A stretch of DNA of 9,822 nt, taken from the IMG/VR virus record IMGVR_UViG_3300015182_000005. One strand, given 5' to 3'. Each line of letters opens with the position of its first letter. Position 1 is the first letter of the stretch. The translations under genes were made by a program, and so were the position numbers. This stretch comes from a virus. Lineage: Duplodnaviria; Heunggongvirae; Uroviricota; Caudoviricetes. The notes under the pieces are model-generated. The model was not told where the DNA came from. It searched no databases and saw nothing but the letters and a program-made list of their open reading frames with translations. This document shows positions 1 to 9,257 of this stretch, piece by piece.

Positions 1-2
1 GT

Positions 3-110
3 ATCGATCCGGAAGCGTATCTGCGCCATATCCTGAGCGTACTGCCGGAATGGCCTTCCAACCGAGTTGATGAACTCCTGCCATGGAACGTAGTACTCAC
101 CAATAAATAA
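3..110 (+). CDS. IS66-family transposase, C-terminal fragment (5' end lies outside the window)
   Basis: + strand frame 3 reads IDPEAYLRHILSVLPEWPSNRVDELLPWNVVLTNK then TAA at 108-110. The ...AYL..VL.....NR..ELLPWN ending matches my recollection of IS66-family transposase C-termini. The frame is open to the window edge. Confidence 0.8.
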   Translation: MDPEAYLRHILSVLPEWPSNRVDELLPWNVVLTNK

Positions 111-140
111 GCGTCAATACGGTGCTCCGTTGACGCTTAC
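111..140. repeat. Putative IS66-type terminal inverted repeat (right end), with an internal 9-bp palindrome AAGCGTCAA / TTGACGCTT
   Basis: GCGTCAATACGGTGCTCCGTTGACGCTTAC; outer end is 5'-GTAAGCG on the complementary strand. Exact inner boundary of the repeat cannot be set without the other IS end. Confidence 0.55.
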
Positions 141-3100
141 CCTGACCCCAAGAGAGCCGTCCGCTGCCCGTGTCAGTGGCATGATTGCTTCAGGCCCGGC
201 CTCGCCCATCAACCCGGCCCCCTTCGCAAAAGCAAAATACGTCGGTGTATCCACAATAGTGTTACTGTAAGCACTCAGATTTGCCGATGTGTAAACACCA
301 CCTTTTGCGTTTGCCACTGCCCCCGAAATCCATCCGCCGACCGTACCAAGCCACCCTCCGGCACCGGAGAGTGATTTCAGTCCGTTAACAATGGCTGCAT
401 TCATCAGAATTTTTGAAACTTCCCGGAGAACTGAACTCCCCCAGTTCCTCCAGTCCACAACATTTCCGGCCAGTGCATCGGAAATATTTGATACCAGCCC
501 GTCCATAGTGGAAACGACAGCATCTGCCGCCTGCGAAGCATAATCGGTGGCACTGTCTGCCCAGTTGGTCAGCCCCTCCTGGAGTCCTGCATTCCAGTTA
601 TTACGTAAAGCATCGGCCTTTGCATAATAATCCTGCTGATCGCTGAGACGCTCTTCCAGATATTTTTTATTCAGTTCTTTCTCCTGTTTCCACAGGGCTT
701 CTTCAATTTCTCCGGCCTGATACTGTCTCAGCAGCTCGTTATTTTTCTGCTCAAACTCATGCCGGATACTCCACATTTCCTGGAGTCGTTCACGCATCCG
801 TGAGCCTTCACCATATCCCAGTAACTGCGCGTCGTTAGACGCCCGGGTACTGGCATTACTGTCCGCCAGGCTGCTTTCATACGCAGCAAGCTGCTCACGA
901 ATCTTTTTCTGGTCGATGAGTGCTGCATTCTGCAAAAGCGTTTTTTTCTGCGCTTCTGACAGGGTTGATAATTCGCCCTGACTGACCTGATATTTCATCT
1001 TAGCCAGTTCAGTATTCTGCCCTGCCAGTGCTATCTGTTCTTTTTGCTGTTTAATCAGCCGTTTATAAATATCTTCTGTTTTTTCCGCTTCGGTCTTTTT
1101 ATGCGCTTTGGGTTTATTTGCCTGGTTATTTCGCCAGGCATCCAGTGAGTTATTGATATAATTCTGTCTGGCTGTCTGATACGCCTCTCCCACAAAGCCA
1201 AGATCATCCGCAGCATAGCCCAGTCGAGCACGCTCACGCGCTTCCCCCTTAAGGCGGGACAGAGCCAGTTCGCGCTTGCTGTTATTCAGTGCGGTCTGCT
1301 GTTTATCATCCAGGGTTGCCTGTGGTAGCCGTAACGGTACATTCACCAACCCCTGTCGCTGCTGAAGTAATTCATTACCAAGCCCAAGAAGGCGATTAAA
1401 CTCGGTATGCTGCCCATTCATGATCAACAGGGACTGATACGCTTTGTTTTGTTCCGCCGCCTGTTGACGGATCAACGCAACCCGCCGCTCCTCCAGCCCG
1501 GCAAGCACATCCTGAATGGATTGCGCTTTGCCCTGCATTTGTGTGAGACGGGACTGTTCAACTGCCAGTTGATTTGTTGCTTCTGCAAGCCCTTCTGTGA
1601 CTGTTTTTACCGACGTCATGTGGTTAATCATAAAACCGTTATCGGTTGTCCAGCCCGGGTTTGCCAGCACATACTGATAGCCAGCAATTTTTTCCTGTAA
1701 GGATTTAATCTTACTTTTCTGCTCGTCAATTAACCTGTTTTGCTCATCAAGTGCCTGCCGCGTCTTTTCCTCATTATCTGACGCTTCAGGAAGCGACATT
1801 GCCGACGTTTTCTGGCGAATTTCGTCGATTGTTGCGGCATACTGGCGTGCAGATTCTCTGGCCTGCTCCTGATTCTGATACATCGTGTACCAGGCCGTCG
1901 CCCCCAGCATGACGAGTCCCGGCACACCACCAACCAGCCCCAGCGCACCACTTAACAGACGACTCCCCACTGACGTGACAGTATTCAGCGTTGTCTGCGC
2001 CGCTGTTCTGGCCGCAATATTACGGGTAAGTGACGCCTGAGCAGCTGTCAGCTTCGCTTCTGCTGCGGCCTGCCTTTCGGTACCGCGAGCAGCAACAACC
2101 GCCTGTTGCGCACGATAAACCGCCGCACGCGCTCTGGCGGTTGCTATCTGTGTCCCCCGAAGTTGCGCTTCAGCAAGAGCCACTTCGTTTCTGGCTGCAG
2201 TAATTAATCCGGCAGTTGCAGATCCAGCAGACGACGCCATATTGCCAAAATATCGGGCTACCCCGACGGCAACCAGTGCGCCAGCTGCAGCAGCCACGGT
2301 ATCAATATTGTCTGCAACACCATTCAGCACACCGGAGAGTGTCTTTGTCACTCCGCTTGCCTCGTTCGCACCACCAACCCAGGCCATAAAGGCGTTTTCA
2401 ACTTTGGTTGCAGAGGATGAAACAGTATCAGGCATTGCTGCATATTCATCACGCAACGCCCCAAGCTGACTAATCAGTGCAGGAACAACCTTATCGGCGG
2501 TCAGTTTTCCGTTATCCGCCATGGCCTTCAGATCCTTACGGGCAACCCCCATTCCCGCAGCCAGCGCACGAATAACACGATCGCCGTTCTCATTCACCGA
2601 GTTAAACTCTTCACCGCGCAGCACTCCCTGCGCCAGTGCCTGACTGAACTGCATGATCACCGAACTGGCTTCTGCTGTACTGGCACCGGATAATTTCAGG
2701 CCCGTGGAGATCGCCTCGGTGACTTTCAGTACCTCCTCAGAACTGTAACCATACTCCCGCATGGAAGCTGCAGAACGGGCAAAAAGGCTGGCGTTATCAG
2801 AAAACGCCGTCCCCGTTCTCTGGCTGATCGCCATTAATTCACGCTGTGATGCCTGAAAATCATCACTGGACTGTGAGGCCTGCTTCAGACGGGCATTTAC
2901 TGAATTCCACTCATCGGCGAGAGAAATAAGATGACCGGTAGCAAAAGCCCCGGCAAATGCCCCCGCCATATTCAGTGCCGAAGATTTAGCTGTATTTATC
3001 TGATCCGTCACTTCTGCCAGTGCACGCCGCATTTCACGGGAGGCAGCAGCAGACTGTTGGCCTCCGTTCTGCATGGTGCGGTAGTAATCCTGCCCCATAC

Positions 3101-3185
3101 GCGAAGCCCGGGAGATCTCTGACTGGAATGACCGGGAGTTTGCCGAGATTTTAATAATCAGTTCACGTAATGTCGCCACACTCAT
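114..3185 (-). CDS. Tail tape measure protein (lambda gpH-like), 1023 aa as it stands; the last 8 codons and the stop are IS-derived, so the native C-terminus is probably missing
   Basis: Long ORF directly downstream of the G/GT chaperone pair. Ala/Gln-rich coiled-coil middle section, hydrophobic glycine-rich segments, and a C-terminal region (NWADSATDYASQ ... GEAGPEAIMPL) resembling the lambda H C-terminal region. Codons 140..117 (VSVNGAPY) and the TGA at 116..114 lie inside the IS terminus. Confidence 0.88.
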   Translation of the reverse strand: MSVATLRELIIKISANSRSFQSEISRASRMGQDYYRTMQNGGQQSAAASREMRRALAEVTDQINTAKSSALNMAGAFAGAFATGHLISLADEWNSVNARLKQASQSSDDFQASQRELMAISQRTGTAFSDNASLFARSAASMREYGYSSEEVLKVTEAISTGLKLSGASTAEASSVIMQFSQALAQGVLRGEEFNSVNENGDRVIRALAAGMGVARKDLKAMADNGKLTADKVVPALISQLGALRDEYAAMPDTVSSSATKVENAFMAWVGGANEASGVTKTLSGVLNGVADNIDTVAAAAGALVAVGVARYFGNMASSAGSATAGLITAARNEVALAEAQLRGTQIATARARAAVYRAQQAVVAARGTERQAAAEAKLTAAQASLTRNIAARTAAQTTLNTVTSVGSRLLSGALGLVGGVPGLVMLGATAWYTMYQNQEQARESARQYAATIDEIRQKTSAMSLPEASDNEEKTRQALDEQNRLIDEQKSKIKSLQEKIAGYQYVLANPGWTTDNGFMINHMTSVKTVTEGLAEATNQLAVEQSRLTQMQGKAQSIQDVLAGLEERRVALIRQQAAEQNKAYQSLLIMNGQHTEFNRLLGLGNELLQQRQGLVNVPLRLPQATLDDKQQTALNNSKRELALSRLKGEARERARLGYAADDLGFVGEAYQTARQNYINNSLDAWRNNQANKPKAHKKTEAEKTEDIYKRLIKQQKEQIALAGQNTELAKMKYQVSQGELSTLSEAQKKTLLQNAALIDQKKIREQLAAYESSLADSNASTRASNDAQLLGYGEGSRMRERLQEMWSIRHEFEQKNNELLRQYQAGEIEEALWKQEKELNKKYLEERLSDQQDYYAKADALRNNWNAGLQEGLTNWADSATDYASQAADAVVSTMDGLVSNISDALAGNVVDWRNWGSSVLREVSKILMNAAIVNGLKSLSGAGGWLGTVGGWISGAVANAKGGVYTSANLSAYSNTIVDTPTYFAFAKGAGLMGEAGPEAIMPLTRAADGSLGVRVSVNGAPY

Positions 3186-3195
3186 TCTCCGGACG

Positions 3196-3217
3196 AAAAA
3201 AAACCGCCGAAGCGGTT
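3196..3217 (-). terminator. Intrinsic-terminator-like hairpin plus U8 between GT and the tape measure gene
   Basis: Minus-strand RNA AACCGCUUCGGCGGUU followed by UUUUUUUU (A-run at + 3196-3203), then CGUCCGGAGA and the ATG at 3185. Confidence 0.55.
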
Positions 3218-3225
3218 ATGTTGAC

Positions 3226-3914
3226 TCACTGAGACACTATTAAAAGCGCGTTTTCCAGTCCGGCAAATGGATCTGAAGCGCCTTCTGTCTGCTCCTTCTC
3301 CCACTGAAGAAGCGCATCATTCAGTGACACTTTGACCCCCTGCGCACCGTAAATAGCTGAAACAATCTGGGCAGCCCGGAAATCAGCCCGTTCGTCCCCC
3401 AGCGGGCTGAACCTGTCAAATTCTGCCCACATCATGATTTCTGATGCGGACATTTCCCGGCGTAACTCTGACAATGTGCGCCCCATCCTGAGCGCCAGCA
3501 TCATCAGAAAACGCATCCCCGGAAGCGCTACTTTTTTTTAACCTCGCCGGCATCACTGATCAGTTCCAGAGACTGCCGAAGAAGCCGCGCATGCACCGGG
3601 CCATACACGGCAATCACCTGTTCACGATCATCCTCTGAAAATACGGGTTGCAGTCCGGTATCACACAGAACATCAATGAACAGTTCAACATCTGCCTCCA
3701 GATTTCGGCGGGCGCGCTCCGCAACGGATAACGGTGTCTCATCATCTTTTGCTTTAACGATCTCCTGCCAGCGCAACCAGGCTTCTGCAGAAGGTTCCCG
3801 TAACACAACCGTTGCTCCCTCCCATTCAGGCACATCAACGGTTTTATGGCGAAACCCCGACATCGTTGCCAGTGCCAGATTACGGATATTTTTAGTCATC
3901 ACATCCATCCTCAT
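3226..3914 (-). CDS. Tail assembly chaperone GT-like fusion made by -1 programmed frameshift (G frame 3914..3531, then -1 frame 3537..3226)
   Basis: G ORF ends ...GEVKKK-stop on the run GTT AAA AAA AAG TAG. The -1 frame is open from 3537 and continues (VALPGMRFLMM...) to TGA at 3226. Position directly upstream of the tape measure gene matches the conserved G/GT arrangement. Confidence 0.7.
3528..3914 (-). CDS. Tail assembly chaperone (lambda gpG-like), 128 aa
   Basis: ORF between the major tail gene and the tape measure gene. Start ATG overlaps the major tail stop (TAATG); an alternative start at 3899 has GAGG 9 nt upstream. Ends in the slippery A-run. Confidence 0.75.
   Translation of the reverse strand: MRMDVMTKNIRNLALATMSGFRHKTVDVPEWEGATVVLREPSAEAWLRWQEIVKAKDDETPLSVAERARRNLEADVELFIDVLCDTGLQPVFSEDDREQVIAVYGPVHARLLRQSLELISDAGEVKKK
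3531..3537 (-). promoter_or_regulatory. -1 ribosomal frameshift slippery heptamer A AAA AAG (the dnaX-type site)
   Basis: Minus strand 3537..3531 = AAAAAAG in the X XXY YYZ register of the G frame, 1 codon before the G stop. The -1 frame downstream is open for more than 100 codons. Confidence 0.65.
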
Positions 3915-4618
3915 TAACTGACGGTTACAGTGCAGGAAGTGGAGGTCACTTTGTTAACCGGGCTCGCTGAATCAGAAATCTCGCAGGTATACGCACCGGC
4001 ATCACCGGATGCTGCTGATGCCTTACTGAACGTTGCCGCCGTCTGTCCGGAAACAGGAGAACCACCTTTTTTCCAGGCATAAGAATAAGGCGGCACACCA
4101 CCCACAGCCTCAACCGCCATTTCAAGTTTCGCTCCGGAAGCAACCCGCAGCGTGCTTTTTAAATCGACCTTCACTTTCAGCTGCTCTGTCGTCAGCACAG
4201 GCTTACCTTTCAGGCGCAGAGAAAACGTTGCAGCCACAACACCATTGGTTCCTGCAGACCAGGTATGCTGACGCACCTCTGCCATAAAGGTAAATCCGTT
4301 GCCTGACGGAAAAATAACTTTAAAGCCATACGTGGTGTCATTGTCATAGGCACTGCGCAACGCGTTCTGGGCAGCATTCAGATAAAAGTTGCCTGACATG
4401 GAAATCTCTGAAGCAGCCCCAAGACCGTTAATATTTTCCTGCTCAACAGAATACAGCGTGGTGACATCAATATCCTGCTTTTGTCCTGCGGTAAACTGCA
4501 CCTCTTTGATTGTACAGCTCAGGCCAAGATAGCTGGCAGAATCCAGGGTTTCTGCTGTTACCGGTGCAGACGAAATCATAATTTTCGTCAGTTGCGAACG
4601 CTCAAAATTAGAGGACAT
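3914..4618 (-). CDS. Major tail protein with C-terminal Ig-like domain, 234 aa
   Basis: Position immediately upstream of the chaperone pair. AGGAG 6 nt before the ATG. C-terminal ~85 aa (GGVPPYSYAWKKGGSPVSGQTAATF...GAYTCEISDSASPV...CTVTVS) has the pattern of phage Ig-like domains. Confidence 0.8.
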   Translation of the reverse strand: MSSNFERSQLTKIMISSAPVTAETLDSASYLGLSCTIKEVQFTAGQKQDIDVTTLYSVEQENINGLGAASEISMSGNFYLNAAQNALRSAYDNDTTYGFKVIFPSGNGFTFMAEVRQHTWSAGTNGVVAATFSLRLKGKPVLTTEQLKVKVDLKSTLRVASGAKLEMAVEAVGGVPPYSYAWKKGGSPVSGQTAATFSKASAASGDAGAYTCEISDSASPVNKVTSTSCTVTVS

Positions 4619-4630
4619 ACTCGTCTCCTG

Positions 4631-4657
4631 AAAATAAAAAAACCCGCCAGCGGCGGG
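4631..4657 (-). terminator. Intrinsic-terminator-like hairpin plus U-tract between the tail completion gene and the major tail gene
   Basis: Minus-strand RNA CCCGCC-GCU-GGCGGG followed by UUUUUUUAUUUU, then CAGGAGACGAGU and the ATG at 4618. Confidence 0.6.
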
Positions 4658-4678
4658 TGGGTAAAATCATTAATGACC

Positions 4679-5023
4679 TCAGGCTATTACCTGGAATTCA
4701 AGCGTGGCTCTGCTCAGACGGGAGTCAGGATCATAACCCTGCGTTTTAGAAATAACGGAGGGTGCCAGTTTTCTTACCGCATCAAGCGCCTGCTCACGAA
4801 TATTATCTGCGTCATCAGGTACTGTCGCCCAGACATCGATCTGCACGGTAATTCTGGATTCAGCCTGCCCATCAAGCACATCAGATACCGTGTCAGACAC
4901 CACAGAAAACACCAGCCACGGCGGAGATACTGCAGGCTTTCCCTCCGTCAGCGGGACCACATAAGGATAAACCTGTCCTCCGGCCAGCTGAGACAACAGG
5001 GAATACAGTGTGCCCTCCCTCAT
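4679..5023 (-). CDS. Tail completion / tail component protein (DUF3168-like), 114 aa
   Basis: Position between the gp10-like gene and the major tail gene; sequence pattern resembles the DUF3168 family by recall. Start overlaps the upstream stop by 4 nt. Confidence 0.6.
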   Translation of the reverse strand: MREGTLYSLLSQLAGGQVYPYVVPLTEGKPAVSPPWLVFSVVSDTVSDVLDGQAESRITVQIDVWATVPDDADNIREQALDAVRKLAPSVISKTQGYDPDSRLSRATLEFQVIA

Positions 5024-5812: not shown

Positions 5813-6130
5813 CTACAAAGGAATAAAACGATAAGGCTCCAGCAGAGAAGAAAAACCAAACGGGACTGGTGCCTTACTGACATCTGAGGAATTTTCCCGG
5901 TTTTCGCACCAGTGCCCGACCAGCAACATGAGCGCCAGCAAAACATCATCAGCTATAAGCACCCCTTCAGGATCACCTTCCGGCACCGTCTCCTCATAAA
6001 GCTTACGGTTGATAAAATTTTCTGCCTTGCGGCAGGCAGCCCGGAAATACAGCATCAGTAACTCATCATCAGTTGCATCATCTGTATCAATACGGCACTG
6101 CGCCCTGAGTTTTTCCACTATTGCTGCCAT
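5813..6130 (-). CDS. Head-tail connector protein (phage gp6-like), 105 aa from the ATG at 6130
   Basis: MAAIVEKLRAQCRIDTDDATDDELLMLYFRAA... resembles gp6-like connector N-termini. AGGAG 6 nt upstream of the ATG at 6130. The longer 165-aa ORF in the track would overlap the capsid gene by 104 nt and has no ribosome-binding site. Confidence 0.7.
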   Translation of the reverse strand: MAAIVEKLRAQCRIDTDDATDDELLMLYFRAACRKAENFINRKLYEETVPEGDPEGVLIADDVLLALMLLVGHWCENRENSSDVSKAPVPFGFSSLLEPYRFIPL

Positions 6131-6163
6131 CAGAAACTCCTGCCCGCAACACTGTGCGGGCAT

Positions 6164-6185
6164 AAAAAAACCGCGTCGGCGCGGT
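6164..6185 (-). terminator. Intrinsic-terminator-like hairpin plus U7 immediately downstream of the major capsid gene
   Basis: Minus-strand RNA ACCGCG-CCGA-CGCGGU followed by UUUUUUU. A second hairpin GCCCGCA-CAGUGU-UGCGGGC at 6141-6160 abuts the connector AGGAG. Confidence 0.6.
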
Positions 6186-6206
6186 CTGTAACTGAACAAC
6201 GAGTGG

Positions 6207-7424
6207 TTATTTGCCAGTGAGCGCCTTGATGGCTGCCACATCTTCCAGCACACAGTCAAAACGATGGAAAGCCAGAAATGCCACCTGATCAAACTCAGCA
6301 TAACGCTCAACCAGACGTTTCAGTTCCATATAAGTAACGCGGCGAATGATAAAGCGGTTGAAATCCCCCAGGAAAATGAATTTTTTTCCAGTACCAATCC
6401 CGTCAATAGCCTGATCAATAACATAAGGGATCCCCAGCACAGTAGCCGGCGTACCGCCTGCAATATCCGGCAGCCATAACGGGCGTTTCTGTCCATCCTC
6501 CATCTCTTCAATAGTCTGCAATGTGGCATCATTGAATGCCCAGCGGTATTTCGGCCCACCACGATATGCCGGATCAATGGCATGTTTCAGGGCATTCATT
6601 TCTTTCCAGGTGAAAGCGGCAGAGGCTGCAGTCTGGATGGTTCCCGTCACCGACGCTGCCAGCCCTTTTGGCTGTAACGGTGATCCCGTTCCGGTCCCCT
6701 GAACCAGATATTTTGCCTCTCCACGACCAATACGCTGGGCAATACGGTTTGCCAGATAAGATTCAATATCCACCCCACTGTCCTGGAGCAGCTCATTGGA
6801 CACACGAATTATTTTTGATGACAGCTTTTTAGCCCCCAGAATAGCGGTCCCGAACGTCACATCCTGTTCCGTTGCGGCTGTATTTTCCGCCAGCAGTTCG
6901 CCCTCTTCAGTCGTGCCATCAGACGTTGACCAGGTGATATCCTGCCCGGTTGATGTGGTCAGAAGTTGCGCCACACTGGCAATCCCGCCATAAGCCTTCA
7001 TGGTGTCAATGATTTTGTTACGCATCTGCGTGGGCACCGTATATCCGCCCTGAGAATCCGTTGTTACACTCTGAGCCCGCAGTTCACGCATCAGATTACG
7101 CTCTTCAGCATTCAGTTCTGCAAATCCGGCACGCAGAAAACGGTTAAATGCCGCAGCACGCTTCTCTTCCACCGCCTTTTTCCCGTTCTCCGCCTCATTA
7201 TTCTGGCGCTCTTCCGGCCCGGACTCATCCACATATGCCTGATCCTGACGGCGCAACTCTTCTTCACGGGCGATTTGCTCATCCAGCGCATCCAGCTCAG
7301 CTTTCGCCCTGTTCCACTCAGCCCGTTGCTCATCAGTCCATGCGTTATCACCAATTTTTTCATGCAGTGCACGCATATCCTTTGCAATGGTGTTTCGTTT
7401 TTGCTTCATCTCATGAAGTTTCAT
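6207..7424 (-). CDS. Major capsid protein, HK97 fold, with N-terminal delta (scaffolding) domain, 405 aa
   Basis: Immediately follows the prohead protease with no scaffold gene. First ~115 aa are a highly charged coiled-coil-like region (delta-domain-like), followed by a capsid-like body. Confidence 0.88.
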   Translation of the reverse strand: MKLHEMKQKRNTIAKDMRALHEKIGDNAWTDEQRAEWNRAKAELDALDEQIAREEELRRQDQAYVDESGPEERQNNEAENGKKAVEEKRAAAFNRFLRAGFAELNAEERNLMRELRAQSVTTDSQGGYTVPTQMRNKIIDTMKAYGGIASVAQLLTTSTGQDITWSTSDGTTEEGELLAENTAATEQDVTFGTAILGAKKLSSKIIRVSNELLQDSGVDIESYLANRIAQRIGRGEAKYLVQGTGTGSPLQPKGLAASVTGTIQTAASAAFTWKEMNALKHAIDPAYRGGPKYRWAFNDATLQTIEEMEDGQKRPLWLPDIAGGTPATVLGIPYVIDQAIDGIGTGKKFIFLGDFNRFIIRRVTYMELKRLVERYAEFDQVAFLAFHRFDCVLEDVAAIKALTGK

Positions 7425-8038: not shown

Positions 8039-9257
8039 CGTTCTTTTCCTCTGTGCCTTTCGTATCTTTAAAGTTATTCAACGGATTTGCTGCATTTACG
8101 CTGACCAGCATTTCATCCAGACCGTCAACCGGGTTCATATCCTCAAATGCCCTGGCTTCATTCCGACTCATCCAGCCATCTGTAATGGCAAAGTGATAGA
8201 ACTGCGCACGCTCCTGTGGGGTCCCACGGAGCAACCCCGTGAGGTTAAAACGAACGTAATACCCGGCAGCCCGTTCTGTACGGGTAAACAGGCGACGGTT
8301 AAGCTCCTGCTCCCAGTTCGCAACCCAGGGCATCATCGTGTAGCGAACAAACTGAATCGCCTGCTGCGTAATATTCGAAAATGTGGCTTTTTCCAGGTCA
8401 TTAATCATGTGCGCCGGGACATTAAAAATCCCTGCAATCATCGACCTGTTCAGCTTGGTCATATCAATGATCTGAGCATCCACCGGAGAAACTGTCAGAG
8501 CGCGGTAATCCAGTTGCGCAGGCAACAGCATGGTTTTATTTTCCTGGCTGCGAAGCGCTGTCACCGCCCGCTGCCACATATTTTTAAGCCTGCCCCAGCT
8601 CTGTTCGTTCAGTTCATTTTTCACAGAAATAATACCGGCAGGACGGGCATTACCGTTAAAAAAGGCGCTGGTATACTGCTGGCCACTCATTCCCATACCA
8701 ATGGTTTCAGCATGCTGCATGATCGGGCTCAGTCCCATTTTCTGATTGTTTCCCAGCGCCCTGATATGGATCATGTCGTCCGGACTTACCGCAAATGCAC
8801 CCTCTTCGTTATACACCCCGTAAGTATGACGCCCACCGGTGTTAAGTAACGTGGTTTCCCATGGCATACAGCATTCAAGGCTGGTAACCTCTCCACGACG
8901 ATTACGTTTTACCCACGTATAACCATTGCCCCACCCCAGCACATGACGCTGCTTCAGTTCCCGCCACTTATAGCTGGTCTGCCAGGCATTAGGTTCATCA
9001 TGAACGAGCCAGAACAACGGATGATCGCGTGCAGGCTGAACATGCTCATTCGTTTTTCGCATCACATGCAGGGGCATCTGAGCCACACTGGATGAAATAA
9101 CATAAATACAGGCATAGACAGCAGCCAGCTTCATGGATGTTTCCGGACTGACATACACATCCCGGGCAAAAATATTATCCGTCTCAGCGGCCTCTCCGGT
9201 TACCGGAACCGAGGGATTTTCCAGAGACTCACTGCGAAACAGAGCATCAAGAAGCAT
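8031..9257 (-). CDS. Portal protein (HK97 family), 408 aa
   Basis: Position downstream of the large terminase; size and N-terminal pattern typical of HK97-type portals. AGGAGA 5 nt upstream of the ATG. Confidence 0.85.
   Translation of the reverse strand: MLLDALFRSESLENPSVPVTGEAAETDNIFARDVYVSPETSMKLAAVYACIYVISSSVAQMPLHVMRKTNEHVQPARDHPLFWLVHDEPNAWQTSYKWRELKQRHVLGWGNGYTWVKRNRRGEVTSLECCMPWETTLLNTGGRHTYGVYNEEGAFAVSPDDMIHIRALGNNQKMGLSPIMQHAETIGMGMSGQQYTSAFFNGNARPAGIISVKNELNEQSWGRLKNMWQRAVTALRSQENKTMLLPAQLDYRALTVSPVDAQIIDMTKLNRSMIAGIFNVPAHMINDLEKATFSNITQQAIQFVRYTMMPWVANWEQELNRRLFTRTERAAGYYVRFNLTGLLRGTPQERAQFYHFAITDGWMSRNEARAFEDMNPVDGLDEMLVSVNAANPLNNFKDTKGTEEKNDE

What the first reader, a model, noticed from the sequence alone, without database searches (positions are those of the whole stretch)
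3186..3225. Terminator-like hairpin between the GT chaperone and the tape measure gene
A hairpin (ACCGC-UUCG-GCGGU) plus U8 sits in the sense orientation in the 40-nt gap before the tape measure gene, whose GGAG lies unusually close to the ATG. Together with the other two structures this suggests the late operon carries built-in attenuators at stoichiometry boundaries that are read through under antitermination.
Basis: partly seen in the sequence, partly recalled or inferred. Interest (0 to 1): 0.35.

Follow-up and report, generated by a model that had tools for sequence, protein, structure and literature searches.

The report
Conserved terminator hairpin before tape-measure gene
The hairpin is real and looks like a transcription stop signal, and related phages keep one at this same gene junction; phage HK97 already has one annotated there, so this is an ordinary feature whose exact role is still untested.

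Summary
On the minus (coding) strand, AACCGC-UUCG-GCGGUU (3217-3202) followed by a T8 run (3203-1396 corrected: 3203-3196) lies 8 nt after the stop codon of the T frame and just before the tape-measure (TMP) ribosome-binding site.

- **Not chance.** A strict terminator scan finds three sense-strand hits in the window, in its three largest annotated intergenic gaps. It finds none on the antisense strand. Shuffles give 0.06 per strand.
- **Conserved by position.** Of 43 species-representative homologous junctions with a gap of 30 nt or more, 37 carry a hairpin plus T-run. Background is 2.3%. I found 39 distinct hairpins.
- **Already annotated in a relative.** HK97 has a "putative terminator" at the same junction, after its gene 15 moron.
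- **Kept through moron turnover.** The terminator is present with or without an inserted gene. It is absent where T and TMP abut, as in lambda, HK022, Proteus and Xenorhabdus.
- **One sub-claim fails.** "GGAG unusually close to the ATG" is wrong. The start is GTG 3179, 7 nt from GGAG.

The stoichiometric-attenuator idea is untested and partly contradicted. My best reading is an intrinsic terminator that stops polymerase lacking Q modification and is read through by Q-modified polymerase. It is a new member of a known kind and of low interest.

The parts
3202..3217 (-). Terminator hairpin: 5' arm AACCGC (3217-3212), loop UUCG (3211-3208), 3' arm GCGGUU (3207-3202)
   Evidence: Sequence read. 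Listed by the scan. Local minimum-free-energy fold -8.5 kcal/mol, z = -3.8. Strict-scan hit.
3196..3203 (-). T8 run (U-tract); its first two T are also the base of the stem
   Evidence: The run is 7-9 T long in near-identical prophages.
3226..3228 (-). TGA stop of the T frame (end of the G-T frameshift product), 8 nt before the hairpin
3187..3190 (-). Shine-Dalgarno GGAG of the tape-measure gene
   Evidence: It lies 7 nt from GTG 3179.
3177..3179 (-). GTG, the most likely start codon of the tape-measure gene (rather than ATG 3185-3183)
   Evidence: Annotated start in ON470619, PV340570 and RefSeq NZ_AP019189. It aligns with the ATG of the HK97, Stx-phage and GTDB homologues.
114..3179 (-). Tape-measure gene (Phage_HK97_TLTM, TMP_3, Tape_meas_lam_C). 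Its 3' end is cut by an IS66-family insertion at about 139/140.
3528..3914 (-). Tail assembly chaperone G (Phage_TAC_1), with the slippery heptamer A_AAA_AAG at 3537-3531 just before its TAG stop
3226..3534 (-). T part of the G-T protein, read in the -1 frame (Phage_tail_T)
   Evidence: Frame arithmetic. Pfam match.
4642..4658 (-). Second sense-strand terminator-like hairpin (ACCCGCC-GCT-GGCGGGT + T7), between the tail completion gene and the major tail protein gene
   Evidence: HK97 annotates a putative terminator at the equivalent place. A similar hairpin is present in HK022 and BP-4795.
6168..6187 (-). Third sense-strand terminator-like hairpin (AGACCGCG-CCGA-CGCGGUUU + T-run), just after the major capsid protein gene
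   Evidence: HK97 annotates a putative terminator after gene 5.

Best explanation
The element is a Rho-independent (intrinsic) transcription terminator that belongs to the junction between the tail chaperone G/GT genes and the tape-measure gene of a lambdoid, HK97-like prophage.

Mechanism, inferred from established terminator biology: when RNA polymerase transcribes 3217-3196, the short GC hairpin with its UUCG loop forms in the exit channel while the weak rU:dA hybrid of the U-tract is in the active site, and the transcript is released.

Polymerase that has not been modified by the phage Q antiterminator is stopped before it enters the tape-measure and distal tail genes. Such polymerase could come from leak through tR', from spurious promoters, or, in relatives, from the promoter of a moron inserted at this junction. 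The terminator then acts as a fail-safe or insulator in the lysogen and as the 3' boundary of the moron slot.

During lytic growth Q-modified polymerase reads through it, perhaps with a small loss.

Shown here: the anatomy, its orientation, that it is far beyond chance, its positional conservation with changed stems, and its persistence with and without morons.

Inferred: actual termination, read-through under Q, and the selective reason it is kept.
For: - **Anatomy.** Canonical hairpin plus U8, in the sense orientation, 8 nt after a stop codon.
- **Beyond chance.** The only three strict terminator motifs in 9.8 kb are on the sense strand in the three largest annotated intergenic gaps. Shuffles give 0.06 per strand and 0 of 300 reach 3.
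- **Recurrence at the same junction.** In the 68 GTDB (species-representative genome) loci where the T stop could be placed, 37 of the 43 junctions with a gap of 30 nt or more have a hairpin plus T-run ending within about 30 nt of the TMP start (15-24 nt in the separate scan). Only 2.3% of 45-nt sense windows inside the TMP gene do. Four more keep the hairpin with a decayed T-run.
- **Changed stems.** Of 126 junctions with a gap of 30 nt or more, 123 have a hairpin, of 39 distinct kinds. Stems include CCGC, CCCGC, CCTGC, GCTCGC, CCGGC, CCACC and CCCTC, each with its complement.
- **Prior annotation.** HK97 annotates a putative terminator at this junction and at the two other equivalent places.
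- **Moron context.** The junction is the original moron site (HK97 gene 15). [quoted passage not shown]
- **Moron turnover.** Terminator-only and moron-plus-terminator states are interleaved on a clustering of TMP N-termini. A lineage 98% identical in the TMP N-terminus carries a 114-aa moron upstream of the very same hairpin.
- **Q system in a close relative.** PhiR49_2 has Q and a tR'-like terminator about 70 nt after it. It also has seven or so sense-strand terminators along the late region, two of them flanking lom.
- **Literature.** Stopping spurious, non-antiterminated transcription is one of two roles proposed for such intra-operon terminators (PMC8022706).
Against: - No 3' ends or termination assays were available for this junction. 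The Term-seq paper on E. coli Sakai has no supplement held.
- The stem is short (4 GC + 2 AU pairs, -8.5 kcal/mol), so termination may be only partial.
- No promoter-like site upstream in the window exceeds chance, so the source of the non-antiterminated transcription it would block is hypothetical here.
- In 32 haplotypes of the moron-less E. coli lineage the hairpin has no substitutions. With 15% of columns variable, that has a chance of about 0.07, so it is not significant on its own.
- The covariation count was made on hairpins picked by my own scanner, so the 94% paired figure is circular. Only the positional enrichment is unbiased.
- 25 of 68 related junctions do without any terminator.
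Confidence: 0.6

Rival explanations
1. Lytic-phase attenuator. Even under Q, a fixed fraction of polymerases stop here, so mRNA for the tape measure and tail tip (few copies per virion) is lower than for the major tail protein and G.
For: The site separates genes for high-copy products (major tail protein, G) from genes for low-copy products (TMP onward). A similar hairpin follows the major capsid gene. Partial termination is one of the two roles suggested in PMC8022706. The stem is weak (-8.5 kcal/mol), which suits a partial effect.
Against: Lambda (T and H overlap by 8 nt), HK022 (19-nt gap) and 25 of 68 homologous junctions have no terminator, yet use the same G/GT/TMP system. The conserved hairpin upstream of the major tail protein gene would attenuate the most abundant tail protein. 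From my own knowledge, Q-modified polymerase is largely terminator-resistant. From my own knowledge of lambda, stoichiometry there is set mainly by translation.
Confidence: 0.2
2. Relic of moron turnover. The hairpin came in with a moron cassette that was later lost, or is a recombination joint, and has no selected function in this moron-less phage.
For: The identical hairpin (loop included) ends a 114-aa moron in a sister E. coli lineage, and the same stem and loop end a roughly 440-nt insert in Leclercia, Enterobacter and Superficieibacter. Four moron-less junctions have hairpins with decayed T-runs. In the HK97 versus HK022 comparison, gene 15 and its terminator look like one inserted unit.
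Against: Terminator-only junctions occur in many genera. Their TMP N-termini are down to 39% identical (median 66%), and most keep an intact hairpin plus T-run with different loops and stems (15 of 19 short-gap GTDB loci). A free 24-nt relic would not be expected to survive that divergence. The junction is kept at 95% identity or more in 877 of 5426 complete E. coli genomes.
Confidence: 0.1
3. RNA-level element rather than a terminator. It could be a 3' hairpin that protects the upstream major-tail/G/T message from 3' exonucleases after processing. It could also be a U-rich standby or S1-binding enhancer, or an SD-masking switch for tape-measure translation.
For: The U-tract always abuts the TMP ribosome-binding site, with the hairpin ending 15-24 nt before the start codon. 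In the window lineage the minimum-free-energy fold of the read-through RNA pairs the loop and 3' arm with CCGGAG and buries the GUG (probability unpaired 0.03). By inference from the frameshift layout, the T region is translated by few ribosomes, so the TMP needs independent initiation.
Against: The SD-masking fold is not conserved. In Stx phages and most relatives the terminator hairpin stays in the minimum-free-energy fold and the SD is mostly open. A stabilising hairpin would not need the conserved T-run. The 47- and 101-nt folds are no more stable than shuffles.
Confidence: 0.1

Closest known systems
Putative terminator annotated between gene 15 and gene H (tape measure) of phage HK97 (GenBank AF069529, record 8398-8422)
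   Same: Same junction, directly upstream of a homologous tape-measure start (MATLRELIIKISANS). Same orientation and same design: ACCCGC-loop-GCGGGU plus T7, ending 17-18 nt before the start.
   Different: In HK97 a 62-aa moron gene (gp15, superinfection exclusion; PMC3594210) lies between the T stop and the terminator. In the window the hairpin follows the T stop after 8 nt and there is no extra gene. Stem and loop sequences differ.
Intra-operon terminators of Q/gp23-antiterminated late operons in lambdoid phages (for example phage L and P22; PMC8022706)
   Same: Predicted Rho-independent terminators inside a late operon that has a single antiterminated promoter, at module boundaries. The role is stated to be unknown, with the same two hypotheses on offer.
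   Different: Different phage group and different junction (the end of the procapsid module in L). No homology.
tR' of lambdoid phages (the terminator after pR' that Q overrides)
   Same: Intrinsic terminator in the late transcription unit that Q-modified polymerase is expected to read through. PhiR49_2 has a candidate about 70 nt after Q. PMC7547250 mapped tR' by Term-seq in Stx phages.
   Different: tR' is promoter-proximal and is the regulatory switch. The element here lies about 12 kb downstream and has no known regulatory partner.
Moron cassette (promoter, gene, terminator) as defined for HK97/HK022
   Same: Same insertion slot. The terminator forms the 3' border of morons in relatives.
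   Different: The window has neither the gene nor a detectable promoter, so it is not a moron, only the terminator.

Membership tests
Rho-independent (intrinsic) terminator | GC-rich stem-loop (about 5-14 bp, loop 3-8 nt) | tested here: met
   6 bp (4 GC), UUCG loop, -8.5 kcal/mol, z = -3.8. It is at the weak end of the range.
Rho-independent (intrinsic) terminator | Run of U immediately 3' of the stem | tested here: met
   T8 at 3203-3196, six of them beyond the stem. The run is 7-9 T in close relatives.
Rho-independent (intrinsic) terminator | Same orientation as transcription, in non-coding sequence after a stop codon | tested here: met
   Minus strand, like all genes in the window, 8 nt after the T stop. 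On the opposite strand the hairpin has no T-run.
Rho-independent (intrinsic) terminator | Structure rather than sequence conserved among homologous sites | tested here: met
   37 of 43 junctions with a gap of 30 nt or more, against a 2.3% background. 39 distinct hairpins. Double-sided changes in 10 cells against 2.1 in shuffles, though that alignment was built from scanner hits.
Rho-independent (intrinsic) terminator | RNA 3' ends or termination demonstrated at the U-tract | not testable with these tools
   No Term-seq tables are held.
Moron cassette (HK97 gene 15 type) | Extra ORF between the T stop and the TMP start, compared with relatives | tested here: not met
   The gap is 46 nt and holds no ORF. 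Relatives carry 288-1127 nt inserts.
Moron cassette (HK97 gene 15 type) | Own promoter | tested here: inconclusive
   No promoter-like site at or before the gap. The same scan also fails on HK97 gene 15, which is expressed from the prophage, so the scan is insensitive.
Moron cassette (HK97 gene 15 type) | Terminator at the 3' end, at the T/H slot | tested here: met
Q-antiterminated lambdoid late operon | Q gene followed by pR'/tR' upstream of the lysis, head and tail genes, all on one strand | tested here: met
   Not in the window itself. Met in the 97.9% identical complete phage PhiR49_2: Q at 14530-14910, a terminator at 14980, then lysis, terminase, head and tail genes.
Described RNA families (Rfam 15) | Match to a covariance model at 3186-3225 | tested here: not met
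   No match with E up to 1 at this site.
Leader-type attenuator with competing terminator and antiterminator folds | Conserved alternative pairing that excludes the terminator hairpin | tested here: not met
   The alternative fold uses downstream SD sequence, occurs in the window lineage only, and is not conserved in 46 other junctions.

The most novel reading that the evidence does not exclude
The terminator is a resident, selected part of the chaperone/tape-measure junction rather than part of any moron. It would persist through repeated gain and loss of different morons, and so define a reusable expression slot where any gene dropped in is automatically insulated from the tail genes. It might also act as a calibrated partial stop that helps set the ratio of tape-measure to tail-tube mRNA under Q.
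Probability: 0.2. Interest if true: 0.4.

Novelty: new member of a known kind. Interest (0 to 1): 0.2.

Why it matters
Intrinsic terminators inside antiterminated late operons are common. The phage L genome paper says their roles are not known (PMC8022706). This junction offers a clean natural series for testing what they do. It comes in three states: no terminator, terminator only, and moron plus terminator. The terminator-only form is present in about one complete E. coli genome in six. For annotation, the result fixes the tape-measure start at GTG 3179. It also suggests that the "moron terminator" of HK97 gene 15 may belong to the junction rather than to the moron. None of this would surprise a specialist.

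Tried and rejected
- **MAFFT alignment plus RNAalifold** of 46 junctions predicted no structure, because the 3' arms were misaligned by variable loops. I replaced it with an anchored alignment of 4-nt-loop hairpins. That selection makes the percent-paired figure circular.
- **Sigma-70 promoter scans** found nothing above chance in the window, in the L026 moron or in HK97 gene 15. The scan is uninformative.
- **Rfam** has no family at the site.
- **SD sequestration by an alternative fold** is present in the window lineage only. I rejected it as a general explanation.
- **Purifying selection within the E. coli lineage**: the hairpin is invariant in 32 haplotypes, but the chance of that is about 0.07, so the test is not decisive.
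- **Experimental 3' ends**: the Sakai Term-seq paper has no supplement held. Juhala 2000, Cumby 2012 and Casjens & Hendrix 2015 are not held.
- **Other papers** (Tree 2014, Owen 2020, the Tai paper, the HnrS paper and the Pseudomonas ONT-cappable-seq paper) held nothing about this junction.

Full report
**What is there.** All genes of the window read on the minus strand. They form an HK97-type head module and a lambda-type tail module: portal, protease, major capsid protein, connector genes, tail completion protein, major tail protein, chaperone G, the T frame, and the tape measure. Pfam confirms that G is Phage_TAC_1, T is Phage_tail_T, and the long ORF matches Phage_HK97_TLTM, TMP_3 and Tape_meas_lam_C. 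G ends with the slippery heptamer A_AAA_AAG (3537-3531) directly before its stop, and the T frame is the -1 frame.

The T stop is at 3228-3226. Downstream come 8 nt, then AACCGC (3217-3212), UUCG (3211-3208), GCGGUU (3207-3202), and a T8 run (3203-3196). After that come CGTCC, GGAG (3190-3187), A, ATG (3185), AGT and GTG (3179).

**Is it more than chance?** The tool's lax terminator pattern is not rare: 11 found against 9.5 +/- 3.3 in shuffles. The 47-nt and 101-nt folds are also no more stable than shuffles, and they prefer another pairing. Locally, however, the hairpin is the minimum-free-energy structure (-8.5 kcal/mol, z = -3.8).

A strict pattern requires at least 6 bp, at least 4 GC pairs, and at least 6 T in the next 7 bases. 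It gives exactly three hits on the sense strand (loop centres 3210, 4650, 6178) and none on the other strand. In 300 dinucleotide shuffles the mean is 0.063 per strand and none reaches three. The three hits occupy the three largest intergenic gaps of the annotated gene map of this operon: 76 nt after the capsid gene, 60 nt before the major tail gene, and 46 nt before the tape measure.

**The start codon.** The window is 100% identical over 2700-3950 to several E. coli phages. GenBank ON470619 and PV340570 and RefSeq NZ_AP019189 all start the tape-measure gene at the GTG that is window 3179. HK97, Stx phages and nearly all other homologues have their ATG aligned with this GTG, reading M-A-T-L-R-E-L-I-I-K. 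The GGAG is then 7 nt from the start, which is ordinary. The "unusually close" remark came from taking the longest-ORF ATG at 3185.

**Related phages.** Three lines of comparison agree.
- HK97 (AF069529) annotates "putative terminators" after the portal gene, the capsid gene, gene 11 (before the major tail gene), the major tail gene, and gene 15, immediately before the tape measure. The last one reads ACCCGC-UAUCAA-GCGGGU plus T7, then AUGGGUGAAAAU AUG.
- Stx phages are about 70% identical in the flanks. They have AACCGC-UGAG-GCGGUU plus a T-run, or AAAACCUGC-UGUG-GCAGGUUUU plus a T-run, at the same place.
- I fetched 80 viral contigs and 74 species-representative genome loci using the tape-measure N-terminus, and located the T stop by tblastn.

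In the genome set, 68 loci were usable. They split as follows:

| Junction type | Loci | Terminator-like hairpin |
|---|---|---|
| Under 30 nt between T stop and TMP start | 25 | none |
| Gap of 30-60 nt | 19 | 15 intact; 4 with the hairpin but a decayed T-run |
| Gap over 60 nt with inserted gene(s) | 24 | 22 |

So 37 of 43 junctions with room for a terminator have one. By comparison, 2.3% of 45-nt sense windows inside the tape-measure gene score. In the separate scan the hairpins end 15-24 nt before the start codon.

Across all 126 junctions with a gap of 30 nt or more, 123 have a hairpin, and these are of 39 distinct kinds. Stems include CCGC, CCCGC, CCUGC, GCUCGC, CCGGC, CCACC and CCCUC, and loops are 3-8 nt.

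A pair count on an anchored alignment gives 94% paired cells. Ten cells have changes on both sides, against 2.1 in shuffles. That alignment was assembled from hairpins my scanner had already found, so only the positional enrichment is an unbiased test.

**The junction is a moron slot.** HK97 gene 15, the first element ever called a moron, lies between the tail chaperone and tape-measure genes. [quoted passage not shown] I found other cargo at the same slot, always on the sense strand and always followed by the hairpin, the T-run and then the tape-measure ribosome-binding site:
- a 114-aa membrane and zinc-ribbon protein (phrog_8436)
- two lipoproteins of 113-123 aa (phrog_2320)

A sister E. 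coli lineage is 98% identical in the tape-measure N-terminus. It carries the 114-aa moron upstream of the identical hairpin.

On a clustering of tape-measure N-termini, the tight state forms coherent clades: Xenorhabdus, Proteus/Morganella/Providencia, and some Pantoea/Erwinia. Terminator-only and moron-plus-terminator states are interleaved. Lambda (T and H overlap by 8 nt) and HK022 (19-nt gap) have no terminator. The terminator therefore outlasts its neighbours' cargo, but it is not needed for the G/GT/tape-measure system to work.

**Transcriptional context.** PhiR49_2 is 97.9% identical across the region. It is a complete lambdoid phage with cI, cro, replication genes, a Q antiterminator, a lysis cassette, and then the head and tail genes. 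The strict scan finds a terminator about 70 nt after Q, which is a tR' candidate. It also finds the three hairpins seen in the window and two more flanking lom. From established knowledge of lambdoid phages, the late operon is read by Q-modified, terminator-resistant polymerase from a constitutive pR' that otherwise stops at tR' (summarised in PMC7547250).

**Most likely function.** I conclude that this is an intrinsic terminator. The reading I favour (confidence 0.6) is that it acts on polymerase not modified by Q. In the lysogen it adds to tR' as a serial fail-safe. Where a moron is present it ends the moron transcript, so the tape-measure and tip genes stay silent. In lytic growth it is read through.

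- More than a third of related junctions lack the element.
- A conserved terminator sits directly upstream of the most abundant tail protein gene.
- Q is expected to suppress such terminators.

A functionless relic of moron loss (0.1) fits the shared hairpin in the moron-bearing sister lineage. It fits poorly with retention across genera whose tape-measure N-termini are as little as 39% identical.

RNA-level roles (0.1) have only lineage-specific support. In the window lineage the read-through RNA can pair the loop and 3' arm with CCGGAG and bury the GUG, but this is not conserved.

[quoted passage not shown] No 3'-end data for this junction could be reached.

**Verdict.** The element is an unannotated instance of a known kind, already marked at the homologous site of HK97. 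The small addition from this work is the three-state picture of the junction and the persistence of the terminator through moron turnover. Interest is low.

Noticed in passing
window 1-140: The left end of the window is not phage. Positions 1-139 are identical to the end of an IS66-family element (ISEc23-like; the inverted repeat begins GTAAGCGTC) that matches 4586 of 5426 complete E. coli genomes. The window matches phage ON470619 from 9822 down to 140 and then diverges. The IS sits inside the 3' end of the tape-measure gene and replaces its last 63 codons with 9 (1021 aa here, 1075 aa when intact). This copy is probably a tail-defective prophage.
   Followed up: yes
window 3177-3185: The tape-measure start is most likely GTG 3179, not the longest-ORF ATG 3185. 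Some close relatives have ATG at the position of the GTG, reading GGAGAATGAGAATGGCG.
   Followed up: yes
L026:1108-1452; L006:1080-1451; L077:1102-1443; L001:5343-5531: The chaperone/tape-measure junction carries different morons in different relatives: a 114-aa membrane and zinc-ribbon protein (phrog_8436), 113-123-aa lipoproteins (phrog_2320), and HK97 gp15. All are on the sense strand and all are followed by the terminator. The functions of the first two families are unknown.
   Followed up: partly
window 4637-4699 (-): A weak Rfam match to isrK (Hfq-binding sRNA of Salmonella Gifsy-1): 21 bits against a gathering score of 50, E = 0.45. It overlaps the terminator hairpin upstream of the major tail gene and is probably driven by the terminator alone.
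   Followed up: no
window 4642-4658 (-); L161:2220-2236; L005:2875-2893; L001:3831-3852: The terminator-like hairpin directly upstream of the major tail protein gene is also present in HK022, BP-4795 and HK97, so it too is conserved by position. An attenuator there would lower the most abundant tail protein, which argues against a simple stoichiometry rationale.
   Followed up: partly
window 3196-3203 (-): The T-run varies between 7, 8 and 9 T among otherwise near-identical prophages, while the 16-nt hairpin has no substitution in 32 haplotypes.
   Followed up: partly
window 3177-3212 (-): In the read-through RNA of this lineage, an alternative fold pairs CUUCGGCGG (loop and 3' arm) with UCG-UCCGGAG. 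This masks the SD, and the GUG is also paired (probability unpaired 0.03). The fold is not conserved in Stx phages or most other relatives.
   Followed up: yes
window 3226-3537 (-): The T frame is reached only through the -1 shift at A_AAA_AAG. By inference, about 340 nt of RNA ahead of the hairpin would then be thinly covered by ribosomes. That would make the stretch open to Rho on unmodified polymerase and would require independent initiation at the tape-measure start. This was not tested.
   Followed up: no
window 5813-6310 (-): The 165-aa TTG ORF in the mechanical ORF list is over-extended across the capsid-gene terminator. Relatives annotate a 105-aa gene (ON470619 locus L002 4431-4748) that starts after the hairpin.
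   Followed up: no
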